Source: an uncultured Pelagibacteraceae bacterium (GTDB lineage Bacteria; Pseudomonadota; Alphaproteobacteria; Pelagibacterales; Pelagibacteraceae). Taken from it: DNA of 64,000 nucleotides. Positions 40,555 to 46,316 of this stretch are shown in pieces. The position numbers and the translations under genes were made by a program. The DNA is taken from the NCBI GenBank assembly GCA_902595725.1, contig CACJRJ010000002.1:2501-66500 (forward strand), read 5' to 3'. The first letter of the stretch is position 1; every line of letters begins with the position of its first letter. Below the pieces are notes generated by a model. The model saw nothing but the letters and a program-made list of their open reading frames with translations. It was not told where the DNA came from and made no database searches.

Positions 40555-40580
40555 TTTTTTAATTTATATAACTTAATAAT

Positions 40581-40642
40581 TTACTTTAAGCTATTTATAT
40601 AAATAATTGTATTTATACAATATTTTTATAAACTTAAAGTAA
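40581..40642. repeat. Long imperfect AT-rich inverted repeat downstream of the DMT gene (possible terminator)
   Basis: TTACTTTAAG/CTTAAAGTAA outer arms with inner TTTATA/TATAAA and ATTGTA/TACAAT. Confidence 0.45.
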
Positions 40643-40986
40643 TACTTTAAATTAAGATTTTAGGTTATAATTATTATAAAAAAATATATAAAAGTTGACA
40701 AAATAGAAAAAAATAAAATAAAGCCTATAAATTAAGGGTTTTAGACACTAATATATTACTATAGACTGATCAATACATTTAACAACATTCATTACATCAA
40801 TTTATCACTATAAAACGAGGCTAAATAGACATTTTTTGTACGTCAAATAACTATTGATGAACTTAGATTATAGAGTGATGCATATATCGAATATAGCTAT
40901 TAAACGAGCATAGAAGGGGTTAATTTTACGATCTACTCATATACAGTACAACTAAAGGGAGAAATATAAATTTGAAGTTTAAATAT

Positions 40987-41008
40987 AACGTTTTTGTTAA
41001 AAAACGTT
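40987..41008 (-). terminator. Hairpin downstream of MGMT, putative terminator
   Basis: AACGTTTTT-GTTA-AAAAACGTT. Confidence 0.4.
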
Positions 41009-41022
41009 GATAATTAATGATT

Positions 41023-41298
41023 CTAGAGCGTAAAACCTTCCTTTTTTAATAGTTTTTTCTTGATTTTTTTGCCTCCTGGAGCAGAAAAGCCACCGAGAGT
41101 TCCATCGGATCTAATAACCCTATGACATGGTACTTTAGGTGAATATGGGTTCTTCCCGCATGCATTAGCTACAGCACGTGCAGATTTAGGCATTTTTATT
41201 CCTATAGCTACTTCTTTATAAGTTTTTACTTTACCTTTTGGTATTTTCATAAGGTATTTCCAGACTTTTATTTGAAATTTTGTACCTTTTAGGATCAT
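41023..41298 (-). CDS. ogt: Minimal O6-methylguanine-DNA methyltransferase (C-terminal domain only)
   Basis: Start reassigned to ATG at 41298: MILKGTKFQIKVW..IPKGKVKTY..RAVANACGKNP..VPCHRVI. The catalytic Cys is present. Confidence 0.88.
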   Translation of the reverse strand: MILKGTKFQIKVWKYLMKIPKGKVKTYKEVAIGIKMPKSARAVANACGKNPYSPKVPCHRVIRSDGTLGGFSAPGGKKIKKKLLKKEGFTL

Positions 41299-41302
41299 GT
41301 AA

Positions 41303-41490
41303 TAGAAAAACCCTGTTCCCTTGCACTTTTTACGGTGCAAAGAACAGTAGTTTTGACACGTCGTTGTATGCGCTACCGCCATGTCTTCCGCTCTGCATGT
41401 TTAGCGCTGCTTTGCAGAACTTTCTGCCCCCTGGGCTTGAACCTCTCGGTTTTTCCCCAATCGGCCAGTTAAGAGTTGCCTCTTAATTCA
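41303..41490 (-). ncRNA. GC-rich structured RNA upstream of MGMT (candidate marine SAR11 sRNA, possibly IMES-2-like)
   Basis: GC spike in an AT-rich genome; GCAA and GAGA (GNRA) tetraloop hairpins and a G-U wobble on the - strand; terminal stem followed by a T tract; TTGACA at 41513-41508. Confidence 0.75.
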
Positions 41491-41550
41491 TTTTAAACAT
41501 TATCAGATGTCAAAGGTTGTATGTATCACTTTATTGTTGAATTTACTGAT

Positions 41551-41579
41551 TTTTTCACAACTGTGGATAGTGGGGAAAA
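41551..41579. promoter_or_regulatory. Cluster of DnaA-box-like 9-mers
   Basis: TTTTTCACA (fits TTWTNCACA), 2 bp, TGTGGATAG (1 mismatch, opposite strand), then TGGGGAAAA. Confidence 0.4.
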
Positions 41580-41585
41580 GTTAAA

Positions 41586-41750
41586 CTAAAACATTAAGAG
41601 TATCAGCAATACAAAAATGCTGATAAAAAATGCACCAAATATAAGCATTAATATCCTATTTTTGGTTTGTTCTTTTAATTTTGGCCAGTAATTCATTATT
41701 ATGAATGTTCCAATAACGACCAATAATCCAATTAATATATATTTTGGCAT
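41586..41750 (-). CDS. Small two-TM membrane protein (54 aa)
   Basis: Not in the ORF track. MPKYILIGLLVVIGTFIIMNYWPKLKEQTKNRILMLIFGAFFISIFVLLILLMF: two hydrophobic helices with a basic loop. Confidence 0.7.
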   Translation of the reverse strand: MPKYILIGLLVVIGTFIIMNYWPKLKEQTKNRILMLIFGAFFISIFVLLILLMF

Positions 41751-41816: not shown

Positions 41817-41993
41817 TTAGCGTGGAATCATCAAAATTATGTAACTTATGAAGAAGATAATAGCCATAATAGACAGAAAAATTGTGTTTATGCTTTTACC
41901 AGTATTTCTGTATTGAATTAAACTTAAAACAACAAAACCAATTGAGCTTATTAAAAACCATACTGCAGGAATTTCTCCATCAAATGAACCCAT
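41817..41993 (-). CDS. Small two-TM membrane protein (58 aa)
   Basis: ATG at 41993: MGSFDGEIPAVWFLISSIGFVVLSLIQYRNTGKSINTIFLSIMAIIFFISYIILMIPR. Confidence 0.65.
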   Translation of the reverse strand: MGSFDGEIPAVWFLISSIGFVVLSLIQYRNTGKSINTIFLSIMAIIFFISYIILMIPR

Positions 41994-42041
41994 AAATTTG
42001 TATTTTAATCTATTGACAATAAAAATCACCTAATATATAAC

Positions 42042-42066
42042 TTCCGATAATTAATGGTTATCGGAA
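42042..42066. other. lox/dif-like recombination site
   Basis: Perfect 9-bp inverted arms TTCCGATAA / TTATCGGAA around an asymmetric 7-bp spacer TTAATGG, 6 bp upstream of the recombinase ATG. Confidence 0.75.
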
Positions 42067-43855: not shown

Positions 43856-45987
43856 TAATTTTTGTGCCAAATATATTTGGATTTAGATTTAATATTTAGC
43901 GTTTTATTAATAATAAATTCTGCAACTAAATTTGAATTAAAATATTTTAAATATTTAATCTTACCATTTTTACCAATGGATTTTCTTAATCTTTCATCTT
44001 TGCTTATTTTTGAAATTTTTTCAGCTAAATCAGATACATTAGAATAAAACACCATTTCTTTATCACTAAAAAAATCTTTATATCCAGTTTTCTCATCTAT
44101 TAAAGTTACTAGCCCATTACCAGCAATTTGGGTTAGTCTATCACTGCTATAATATTTTATTGGAGTTCCTCTGCTTAAATTTAATCCCATTTTAGAATTA
44201 GAAATAGTTTTAAAATATTGATCAGCCCATATTGGCTGGATATTATTCAAACCATATATGTCGAACTTAATGTCCTTTGATATATTCACTAACTTAGAGA
44301 TAAATTTCTCTCTATCATCATACGATCTAGACTTTAAGCTACCTCTATGAACGCCGTGACTTAGTGCAAAAAAAACATCATTTGAACAGTTTTTATTAAA
44401 ATTATTTAAAGTTTCAAACGATTGATCTGATGGGTTCGGAATAAAATAGTTTTGTACATTTTTTGGTAAAAACTTTAGTGCATCTGGGCTTGTTGTAATA
44501 AAATTTGAATCAATAAACTCCGATTTATCTAAAATTCTTTTTTTATTTTTTAGATAATCAGGCCCATTTTTATTTAATGGATCTAAAAACCATTGAGCAA
44601 TTTTTAAATATGGATATTCATCTTTAAGTTCACCCAACATATTTGGTGAAACTAAATCTGCATGCCCTAGTACTATTAAATCAGGCTTATAATTATAACA
44701 AGTTTTTCTTAATTTTTCATTTAAGGACTTACCACCAGTTATATCTGAATATGATTTATAATTTTTTTGAATATCCCTATCGCTAAATTCTAATACACTA
44801 TTACCCAATCTAATAAATCCATTATTAATTCTTCGACCTGTATTGAAAAATAATCTACCATTATGCCTTTCATTAAAATTTGTTATATGTAGAATTCTTA
44901 ATTTTTTCTTCTCAACATTAACATTGATATTCTTATTAAGAATTAGTTTTTCATCTCTTATCTTATCAATTAAATTTGATACAAACTTATGTGTTAAAAA
45001 AAAATTTTTTAAAGATAACTTTTGTAATTTATTCCTTTTTTGATCATTTAGTATTAATGAGTTAATTTCATTATATAAATTTTTAGTATCAACTTTTTTT
45101 AAAATTACAGCATTTGTTACAGTTTCTGGCAAACCTCCTCTATTACTTATAATTACAGCACAACCATTTGATGATGCTTCCAAACTAGTTCTGCCGAACG
45201 GCTCTTCCCATCTTGAACAAACAACTGCAATACTTGTTTTTTTATAAATGTTTAGAACTTTTTCATGCTTCAAAAAACCAAGTTTAAATAAGTTTTTATG
45301 ATTGAAATTTAATTTATCTCTCGGTTCATCACCAATAACAATCGAGCTCCATTTTTTATGCTTGTTTAATATTTTAATTATTGAATTTCCAAATATATCG
45401 AACCCCTTAGATCTGTTTAATTTACCAACAAAAGTTATAATATTTTTTTTCTTTTTTAGATTAATTTTACTTTTTTGAGCAGATTGATTTATAACTATTA
45501 ATTTTTCACTATTAATATAATCACTTTTCATTCCTTCAAGAAATCTTCTTTTTGACCAATTACTGTTAAAAATTATTTTAAAACAATTTTTTAGTAAAAA
45601 AATTCTTTCGTTTACAGTTTTTGACCCACTCATTGTGAGCGGATCGTTATGAAAATATAATAAATATGTTTTATTTTTTAATTCTTTTATTAAATAATTT
45701 AAGTAGATTGGTCTATTATGCAGCTCAATTAAATCTGAATTATTTTTTTTTTCCAATCTTATAAACTCTTCAACATATTTTTTATTTTGACTTTGAAATA
45801 AATTCTTTTTTAAATTAATATTTTTATATTTATGTTTAAATTTTTTTGTAAATTTAGTATTTCCATAAACAGTTGTATATTTTCTGTATTTGCTGATTTT
45901 TAAAGTTTCATTTATATTTAAAGAAACTGCACCTGCATATGTTGGTGAAAAATTTTCTTTATAAGGTAATAAAATTGATATTTTCAA
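43855..45987 (-). CDS. Two-module glycosyltransferase (GT4-like fused to a CgeB/Glyco_trans_1_2-like domain), TTG start
   Basis: SRWEEPFGRTSLEA..GCAVIISNRGGLPE in the N-terminal half; SKMGLNLSRG..YYSSDRL in the C-terminal half. Confidence 0.85.
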   Translation of the reverse strand: MKISILLPYKENFSPTYAGAVSLNINETLKISKYRKYTTVYGNTKFTKKFKHKYKNINLKKNLFQSQNKKYVEEFIRLEKKNNSDLIELHNRPIYLNYLIKELKNKTYLLYFHNDPLTMSGSKTVNERIFLLKNCFKIIFNSNWSKRRFLEGMKSDYINSEKLIVINQSAQKSKINLKKKKNIITFVGKLNRSKGFDIFGNSIIKILNKHKKWSSIVIGDEPRDKLNFNHKNLFKLGFLKHEKVLNIYKKTSIAVVCSRWEEPFGRTSLEASSNGCAVIISNRGGLPETVTNAVILKKVDTKNLYNEINSLILNDQKRNKLQKLSLKNFFLTHKFVSNLIDKIRDEKLILNKNINVNVEKKKLRILHITNFNERHNGRLFFNTGRRINNGFIRLGNSVLEFSDRDIQKNYKSYSDITGGKSLNEKLRKTCYNYKPDLIVLGHADLVSPNMLGELKDEYPYLKIAQWFLDPLNKNGPDYLKNKKRILDKSEFIDSNFITTSPDALKFLPKNVQNYFIPNPSDQSFETLNNFNKNCSNDVFFALSHGVHRGSLKSRSYDDREKFISKLVNISKDIKFDIYGLNNIQPIWADQYFKTISNSKMGLNLSRGTPIKYYSSDRLTQIAGNGLVTLIDEKTGYKDFFSDKEMVFYSNVSDLAEKISKISKDERLRKSIGKNGKIKYLKYFNSNLVAEFIINKTLNIKSKSKYIWHKN

Positions 45988-46235
45988 TTTTTACCTCCAA
46001 ATTTAATTTTTTTTCTTAATTTATAGTTTTTTTTTAATTTGTACTCTTCTTTCATAGCAATATTTTTCGTTTTATAGGTCTTAAAGTATTTTAACTTCCA
46101 TTTTCTCCCTCTTGTAAATTTAGCTCCTTTCGAGTCATTATGATTATTCAATCTTTTTTTAATATTATTTGTATATCCTACGTAAGAAATTGTTCTTTTT
46201 TTGTTTTTAGAAACTAATAAGTAAACAAAATACAT
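45984..46235 (-). CDS. GIY-YIG nuclease family protein
   Basis: YFVYLL...SYVGYTNNIKKRLNNHN..KGAKFTRGR..AMKEEYKLK. Confidence 0.9.
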   Translation of the reverse strand: MYFVYLLVSKNKKRTISYVGYTNNIKKRLNNHNDSKGAKFTRGRKWKLKYFKTYKTKNIAMKEEYKLKKNYKLRKKIKFGGKN

Positions 46236-46241
46236 TGAATT

Positions 46242-46316
46242 TGGCGGTCCCTAGGGGAATCGAACCCCTCTTTCGAGGATGAAAACCACGTGTCCTAACC
46301 GATAGACGAAGGGACC
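46242..46316 (-). tRNA. tRNA-Glu(TTC)
   Basis: GGTCCCT/AGGGACC acceptor, CGTGG-TTTTCAT-CCTCG anticodon arm, GGTTCGATTCC, GCCA end. Confidence 0.95.

What the first reader, a model, noticed from the sequence alone, without database searches (positions are those of the whole stretch)
41303..41513. About 190-nt GC-rich structured RNA directly upstream of MGMT
Seen on the - strand: TTAAGAG-GCAA-CTCTTAA (41486-41469); a CTGG/CCAG stem enclosing AACC-GAGA-GGTT with a GGGAAA bulge; mutually exclusive GCAGAA/TTCTGC and TCTGCA/TGCAGA pairings; GACATG/CGTGTC; and a terminal CTGTTC-TTGCAC/GTGCAA-GAACAG stem with a T tract ending about 8 nt before the MGMT ATG. GNRA loops and a wobble pair fix the strand. 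It does not look like tmRNA, RNase P, SRP or tRNA. From memory and unverified: abundant SAR11-linked marine sRNAs have been reported, including one beside MGMT and the IMES-2 motif, with no known function.
Basis: partly seen in the sequence, partly recalled or inferred. Interest (0 to 1): 0.7.

Follow-up and report, generated by a model that had tools for sequence, protein, structure and literature searches.

The report
Known SAR11 small RNA IMES-2
The GC-rich structured element is a complete gene for IMES-2, an already catalogued small RNA of the ocean bacterium SAR11 whose function is still unknown; it is a self-contained RNA gene, and the DNA-repair gene behind it is only a passenger.

Summary
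Window 41353-41493 (- strand) matches Rfam IMES-2 (RF02035) over the full model at 158.8 bits (cut-off 54.7). This scan reached the same verdict earlier on three other genomes.

What I found here:
- **Hosts:** Pelagibacteraceae (SAR11), one copy per genome. It was found in 27 of 90 genomes sampled in the window's family and in 0 of 60 in the sister family.
- **Transcription unit:** about 184 nt, made of a conserved two-site upstream module, an extended -10, four hairpins and an intrinsic terminator. Covariation strongly supports the four hairpins, and also a 6-bp kissing interaction between the P3 and P4 loops (eight different complementary combinations).
- **Genomic settings:** the cassette sits in at least three unrelated places. 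Only one has MGMT downstream. In the others the next gene is convergent and MGMT lies elsewhere.
- **MGMT without IMES-2:** in relatives that lack IMES-2, MGMT directly abuts whatever gene is upstream.

I therefore read IMES-2 as a stand-alone, probably trans-acting RNA. MGMT is a promoterless passenger, probably fed by terminator read-through, and this is not a riboswitch target. The function remains unknown.

The parts
41561..41579 (-). Upstream element E1: two adjacent 9-mers that resemble DnaA boxes. It begins right after the stop codon of the upstream ORF.
   Evidence: Conserved in all three genomic settings of IMES-2. It lies 41+-1 or 51+-1 bp upstream of E2, a difference of one helical turn. 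Its function is inferred.
41523..41539 (-). Upstream element E2, a 17-nt conserved block ending in GTGATAC, centred about 41 bp before the presumed start of the RNA
   Evidence: Conserved across settings A, B and C. The position fits an activator site. It lies 21 bp from the -10 hexamer, too far for a standard -35. Inferred.
41497..41505 (-). Extended -10-like promoter element (TG, one base, then a TAnnnT hexamer). The presumed transcription start is near 41487-41491.
   Evidence: The position and the TGnT..T pattern are conserved in 120 distinct sequences. The simple sigma-70 scan did not flag it. The start site was not measured.
41353..41493 (-). IMES-2 RNA core: P1 41469-41486, P2 41424-41468, P3 41390-41420, P4 41355-41385
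   Evidence: RF02035, 158.8 bits, model 1-141 of 141. 93.2% of cells are paired against 33-41% in slid controls, and 27 of 45 pairs show changes on both sides.
41402..41407 (-). P3-loop half of the kissing interaction
   Evidence: Pairs with 41370-41375. 95.4% of cells are paired and three pairs show compensatory changes. Eight different complementary hexamer combinations occur among 184 distinct sequences.
41370..41375 (-). P4-loop half of the kissing interaction
   Evidence: The divergent lineage seen carries a compensated central A:U pair.
41306..41352 (-). Conserved single-stranded linker (41348-41352 and the following bases) and intrinsic terminator (stem 41335-41347 with 41313-41326, loop 41327-41334, T tract 41306-41310). 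This part lies outside the Rfam model.
   Evidence: Present in the minimum-free-energy fold. A 9-bp run is kept with 10 extra pair types in 74 sequences. The terminator sequence differs between genomic settings. The simple terminator scan did not flag it.
41023..41298 (-). Passenger gene: a 91-aa single-domain O6-alkylguanine-DNA alkyltransferase (MGMT) with the PCHR active-site motif, and no room for a promoter of its own
   Evidence: PF01035, E = 2.8e-31. The ATG lies 7 nt after the T tract. In relatives without IMES-2, the MGMT start abuts or overlaps the stop of the upstream gene.

Best explanation
This is the gene for IMES-2 (Rfam RF02035), a small RNA of SAR11 bacteria.

**Shown here**
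- A cassette of about 275 bp (41306-41579) is conserved as a unit. It holds two upstream DNA elements, an extended -10, four hairpins and a terminator.
- The RNA folds into P1 to P4 with a 6-bp kissing helix between the P3 and P4 loops.
- The cassette sits in at least three unrelated places in different SAR11 lineages.

**Inferred**
- Transcription starts near 41489, under the control of a DNA-binding protein at the two upstream elements, and stops at the terminator. That gives an RNA of about 184 nt.
- A small fraction of polymerases read through the terminator. They supply the only transcription of the promoterless MGMT gene, which lies 7 nt behind.
- The RNA acts in trans. I think a protein-bound or otherwise structure-dependent role is more likely than antisense pairing. 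The most conserved parts are folded, there is no helix joining the 5' and 3' ends, and no Hfq, ProQ or CsrA was found in this genome.

Its cellular function is unknown.
For: - **Identity:**
- **Fold and kissing loop:**
- **Hosts:** (Pelagibacteraceae single-cell and metagenome-assembled genomes).
- **Distribution:** one copy per positive genome; 21 of 36 and 21 of 77 genomes of the genus; 0 of 60 in the sister family.
- **Three settings:**
  - A: recombinase, small membrane ORFs, IMES-2, MGMT.
  - B: mnmA, IMES-2, then a convergent gene.
  - C: SNase, IMES-2, then a convergent SRAP gene.
- **Shared promoter, different ends:** the upstream module is the same in all three settings, but the terminator differs in each.
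- **MGMT is unlinked elsewhere:** in setting B and C genomes it lies elsewhere, 178 kb away in one complete genome.
- **MGMT without IMES-2:** it directly follows another gene.
- **RNA chaperones:** no Hfq, CsrA or ProQ was found in the window's genome, which is 84% complete.
Against:
- The simple scans flagged neither the promoter nor the terminator.
- No protein partner or target is known, and no gene is linked to IMES-2 in all settings.
- The claim of high abundance in ocean metatranscriptomes rests on my memory of the 2009 papers, which the library does not hold.
- In setting A the tight promoter, structured RNA, terminator, gene layout does look like a riboswitch.
Confidence: 0.8

Rival explanations
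1. A riboswitch-like leader. IMES-2 senses a ligand or a damage signal and controls MGMT by switching its terminator on or off.
For: In setting A the layout is promoter, folded 140-nt domain, terminator, then the ATG within 5-15 nt, in about 80 species. The 5' half of the terminator can pair with several purine-rich stretches of the core. Kissing loops are common in aptamers.
Against: In settings B and C the next gene is convergent, and MGMT lies elsewhere in the genome. MGMT is found without IMES-2 in six genomes of the genus and in the sister family. The model has no closing helix that could link the fold to the terminator. The candidate alternative pairings are low-complexity U-rich against purine-rich matches with no informative covariation. 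Terminator sequences are swapped between settings while the core stays the same.
Confidence: 0.07
2. A classical base-pairing small RNA that uses a conserved single-stranded stretch to bind target mRNAs. Candidate stretches are the linker after P4 or the junction between P2 and P3.
For: The linker after P4 is conserved in settings A and B, beyond the end of the Rfam model. The junction between P2 and P3 is almost invariant.
Against: The linker is not kept in the divergent lineage. No Hfq or ProQ was found. Most of the conservation lies in the folded parts, and the two long loops are taken up by the kissing helix. No targets were sought.
Confidence: 0.15
3. An RNA that belongs to a mobile or recombination module. 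It would be part of a cassette captured at the lox-like site of the neighbouring tyrosine recombinase, or would serve as its attachment site.
For: In setting A the cassette lies 0.6-1.3 kb from a conserved recombinase and its inverted-repeat site. The genes between that site and MGMT vary from genome to genome.
Against: Settings B and C have no recombinase. The copy after MGMT is degenerate outside the window's close kin. No match was found in phage records or viral contigs.
Confidence: 0.05
4. Protein-coding sequence: an N-terminal extension of MGMT (the ORF 41023-41382) or one of the antisense ORFs.
For: ORFs of 119, 68 and 45 aa overlap the element.
Against: One-base insertions and deletions occur in the core and the linker. 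The spacing between the T tract and the ATG varies by amounts that are not multiples of three. Substitutions come as compensating pairs. The open frame around MGMT varies from 95 to 126 aa among relatives.
Confidence: 0.01

Closest known systems
IMES-2 RNA motif (Rfam RF02035). From my memory, it was described from marine metagenomes and metatranscriptomes in 2009 (Weinberg et al., Nature 462:656; Shi et al., Nature 459:266).
   Same: Full-length match at three times the cut-off score. It has the same four hairpins, loop sequences and junctions, and it is marine.
   Different: Nothing differs in the RNA core. Beyond the Rfam model, this work adds the promoter module, the linker and terminator, the loop-loop helix (not in the model's nested structure; whether the original paper drew it I could not check), named SAR11 hosts including complete genomes, and three genomic settings.
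Transcription-terminating riboswitches, for example the purine riboswitch with its kissing loops L2-L3
   Same: A folded domain with parallel hairpins joined by a loop-loop helix, followed by an intrinsic terminator and, in setting A, a gene.
   Different: There is no closing helix. No downstream gene is consistently present: two of the three settings end against a convergent gene. No ligand is known. The terminator is exchangeable.
Abundant protein-binding small RNAs (6S RNA, CsrB/RsmZ)
   Same: A stand-alone gene, a string of conserved hairpins, and reported very high abundance (from memory).
   Different: The fold is unlike 6S, and no 6S match was found here or in 61 SAR11 genomes. There are no repeated GGA motifs, and no CsrA was found. 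No partner is known.

Membership tests
IMES-2 (RF02035) | Covariance-model score above the curated cut-off over the whole model | tested here: met
   158.8 bits against 54.7, model positions 1-141 of 141, E = 9e-42
IMES-2 (RF02035) | Four hairpins kept by compensatory changes | tested here: met
   93.2% of cells paired on 120 distinct sequences, against 33-41% in slid controls. All 8 P3 pairs covary.
IMES-2 (RF02035) | Conserved GNRA loops, junctions and the two long loop sequences | tested here: met
   Alignment to the model consensus; nearly invariant columns in alignment A1
IMES-2 (RF02035) | Very high abundance in marine metatranscriptomes | not testable with these tools
Riboswitch (transcription-terminating) | Consistently placed in the 5' leader of the genes it controls | tested here: not met
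   In settings B and C the next gene is convergent. MGMT lies elsewhere in those genomes.
Riboswitch (transcription-terminating) | A conserved alternative pairing between the sensor domain and the terminator | tested here: inconclusive
   Only 5-6-nt U-rich against purine-rich matches were found, several of them competing and none informative. The model has no closing helix.
Riboswitch (transcription-terminating) | Binds a specific ligand | not testable with these tools
   Needs in-line probing or a termination assay.
6S RNA (RF00013) | Match to the 6S model (a long hairpin with a central bubble) | tested here: not met
   No 6S match in the region, in the genome or in 61 SAR11 genomes
Intrinsic terminator | A G+C-rich hairpin followed directly by a U tract | tested here: met
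   Hairpin and five U in the fold. The stem is kept with 10 extra pair types in 74 sequences. The simple scan missed it, probably because of the bulge and the three G before the T tract.

The most novel reading that the evidence does not exclude
IMES-2 could be a regulatory RNA tied to DNA replication or DNA damage. Four observations point that way:
- Its promoter travels with it, and the first upstream element looks like two adjacent DnaA boxes set at helical-turn spacings from the second element.
- Its neighbours in different lineages are MGMT (setting A) and an SRAP abasic-site protein plus a nuclease (setting C).
- In setting A it sits beside the recombinase that earlier notes read as the chromosome-dimer resolver at the terminus.
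- Read-through of its terminator may set the level of MGMT.
Probability: 0.07. Interest if true: 0.65.

Novelty: already known. Interest (0 to 1): 0.25.

Why it matters
IMES-2 is, by my memory of the 2009 reports, one of the most abundant non-ribosomal transcripts in surface-ocean metatranscriptomes, and it still has no function. The finding itself is not new. What may help later work:
- The RNA can now be placed in named SAR11 genomes, including closed ones.
- Its whole transcription unit is delimited.
- A well-supported loop-loop helix gives a clean target for mutational tests.
- The MGMT link, the obvious functional lead, can be set aside.

Tried and rejected
- **Literature:** four full-text searches found no usable paper on IMES-2. 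The 2009 Nature paper is not held.
- **Antiterminator search:** a scan of all column pairs in 74 setting-A sequences gave only uninformative U-rich against purine-rich runs.
- **DnaA-box idea for E1:** a weight matrix of E1 has no second strong site in the genome (best other score 17.9 against 25.0). No DnaA-box-like 9-mer lies in the roughly 1.6 kb around and upstream of the start of dnaA. The idea is unsupported but not excluded.
- **6S replacement idea:** no Rfam 6S was found in any of 61 SAR11 genomes, whether or not they carry IMES-2. There is therefore no complementary pattern.
- **Phage origin:** one viral-contig pattern hit was a chance match, and there was no match in phage records.
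- **Simple scans:** the promoter and terminator scans did not flag the elements I propose.

Full report
**Observation.** On the - strand, 41303-41513 holds a GC-rich island. GC is 50% at 41325-41474, against about 25-30% around it. The stretch folds far better than shuffled sequence: -69.4 kcal/mol, z = -4.2. The MGMT-type ORF (41023-41298, PF01035, E = 2.8e-31) starts 7 nt after the T tract.

**Identity.** cmscan of the whole window gives one strong non-tRNA hit: IMES-2 (RF02035) at 41353-41493 (-), 158.8 bits against a cut-off of 54.7, covering model positions 1-141 of 141. The window's genome holds a single copy. Three earlier reports of this scan, on other genomes, reached the same identification.

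**Fold.** I aligned 120 distinct copies from genomes (alignment A1).
- With the Rfam helices plus one extra helix, 93.2% of cells are paired, against 33-41% when partners are slid by 1-3 columns.
- 27 of 45 pairs show changes on both sides, and all eight P3 pairs covary.
- The extra helix joins six bases of the P3 loop (41402-41407) to six bases of the P4 loop (41370-41375).
- Among 184 distinct sequences, which include metagenome copies, the two loops occur in eight different complementary combinations. The two central pairs change together in six of them.
- A divergent lineage that scores only 62-69 bits carries a compensated A:U pair in the centre of this helix.
- In several variants the P3 loop is not self-complementary, so the conserved partner is P4 and not a second copy of P3.
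- Covariation cannot tell whether the contact is within one molecule or between two. The similar stem lengths (8 and 9 bp) and the 4-5-nt linker fit an intramolecular kiss.
- One genome (G157) has a shortened P4 loop that lacks the partner.

**Transcription unit.** The conserved DNA extends beyond the Rfam model on both sides.

Upstream:
- An extended -10-like element lies at 41497-41505.
- A 17-nt block, E2 (41523-41539), is centred about 41 bp before the presumed start.
- A 19-nt block, E1 (41561-41579), begins just after the upstream stop codon.
- E1 lies 41+-1 or 51+-1 bp from E2. That is one helical turn apart, as expected for protein-binding sites on one face of the DNA.
- E1 resembles two adjacent DnaA boxes, but I found no support for that reading.

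Downstream:
- A short conserved linker is followed by a hairpin and a T tract (41306-41347).
- The stem is kept with 10 extra pair types in 74 sequences.

The start site, promoter activity and termination are inferred, not measured. The simple consensus scans flagged neither the promoter nor the terminator.

**Hosts and distribution.** A pattern scan of one genome per species returned about 95 true copies. Every titled record among them was Pelagibacteraceae, Candidatus Pelagibacter or a SAR11 single-cell genome. The hits in other taxa had a different spacing and did not match the profile.

| Group searched | Genomes with IMES-2 |
|---|---|
| Window's genus, first draw | 21 of 36 |
| Window's genus, order-wide draw | 21 of 77 |
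| Two further genera of the same family | 3 of 4 and 3 of 3 |
| Window's family, order-wide draw | 27 of 90 |
| Sister family | 0 of 60 |

There is always one copy per positive genome. Several closed single-contig genomes carry it and many do not. No copy was found in viral contigs or phage records.

**Genomic settings.** Gene maps of 116 genome loci and 101 metagenome contigs show two main settings and a third in the divergent lineage.

| Setting | Gene order | Where seen |
|---|---|---|
| A | glycosyltransferases, a tyrosine recombinase (divergent), one to three small membrane ORFs, IMES-2, MGMT, then a convergent EamA transporter | this window; about 80 species |
| B | mnmA, IMES-2, hairpin, then a convergent 233-aa membrane protein | about 35 species; about 65 metagenome contigs |
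| C | a nuclease of the SNase family, IMES-2, a strong terminator, then a convergent SRAP gene | the divergent lineage |

E1, E2 and the -10 travel with the RNA in all three settings. Each setting has its own terminator.

**Relation to MGMT.**
- In setting B and C genomes, MGMT lies on another contig, or 178 kb away in one complete genome.
- Six genomes of the window's genus, and the sister family, have MGMT but no IMES-2. There the MGMT start codon abuts or overlaps the stop codon of whatever gene is upstream: an acetyltransferase-like ORF or one of the small membrane ORFs.
- MGMT is therefore habitually a promoterless last gene. In this window its only possible source of transcription is read-through of the IMES-2 terminator.
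- The link is positional, not regulatory in the riboswitch sense.

**How it most likely works.**
- IMES-2 is a stand-alone RNA of about 184 nt, made from its own regulated promoter and ended by its own terminator.
- It folds into four hairpins in a row, with P3 and P4 locked by a loop-loop helix.
- It has no helix joining its ends, which is unlike riboswitch sensor domains.
- The window's genome (84% complete) shows no Hfq, ProQ or CsrA.
- I therefore favour a structure-dependent trans role, such as binding a protein, over antisense pairing. This step is inference only.
- The patchy, single-copy, cassette-like distribution marks it as an accessory RNA, not an essential one.

**Novelty.** The family is known, so the finding is 'already known'. 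The following may go beyond the catalogue entry:
- placement in named and closed SAR11 genomes;
- the full unit with its travelling promoter module;
- the three genomic settings;
- the covariation proof of the loop-loop helix;
- the evidence that MGMT is a passenger.

I could not check the original paper. Earlier reports of this scan already noted much of this on other genomes.

**Limits.**
- Statements about abundance and first description come from my memory.
- The genomes searched are samples, and many are incomplete.

Noticed in passing
window 40866-40968 (within the 468-bp spacer 40555-41022): A block of about 100 nt in the unusually long AT-rich spacer between MGMT and the convergent EamA gene is conserved across about 64 distinct setting-A loci, with invariant islands. 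It has no Rfam match even at E = 5, and RNAalifold predicts no consensus structure on the - strand. It may be a DNA-level site.
   Followed up: partly
window 42042-42066 and 41009-41022: A perfect inverted repeat (9-nt arms, 7-nt spacer) sits between the tyrosine recombinase gene and the small ORFs, and it is conserved in about 55 loci. Part of it recurs just after the MGMT stop in this window. In more distant relatives that second copy is degenerate. Earlier notes of the scan read the recombinase and its site as a Cre/lox-like chromosome-dimer resolver.
   Followed up: partly
window 41586-41750 and 41817-42029 (- strand): Two small hydrophobic ORFs (54 and 70 aa, no Pfam match) lie upstream of IMES-2. 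Across relatives, this slot holds varying combinations of three such ORF families. In two genomes one of them lies between IMES-2 and MGMT.
   Followed up: partly
L065:254-1200: In one single-cell genome the IMES-2 core breaks off about 100 nt in and continues into the recombinase gene in the opposite arrangement from normal. This could be a real inversion or an amplification chimera of the single-cell assembly.
   Followed up: no
metagenome loci L182-L301: Roughly a third of the metagenome contigs that carry IMES-2 end within 60-140 nt after the anchor in the RNA, as if assemblies break there. That would be expected if the RNA is nearly identical among co-occurring strains while its flanks differ.
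   Followed up: no
whole genome G000 and 60 relatives: No Rfam 6S RNA was found in any of 61 SAR11 genomes. No Hfq, CsrA or ProQ was found in the window's genome (84% complete).
   Followed up: partly
L143:2001-2128 (genome G157, closed): A divergent IMES-2 (69.7 bits) has a shortened P4 loop that lacks the kissing partner, while its P3 loop keeps the palindromic sequence. It sits in a fourth, different gene neighbourhood.
   Followed up: no
window 45984-46235 (- strand): A stand-alone 83-aa GIY-YIG nuclease-domain ORF lies beside a tRNA gene (46245-46316).
   Followed up: no
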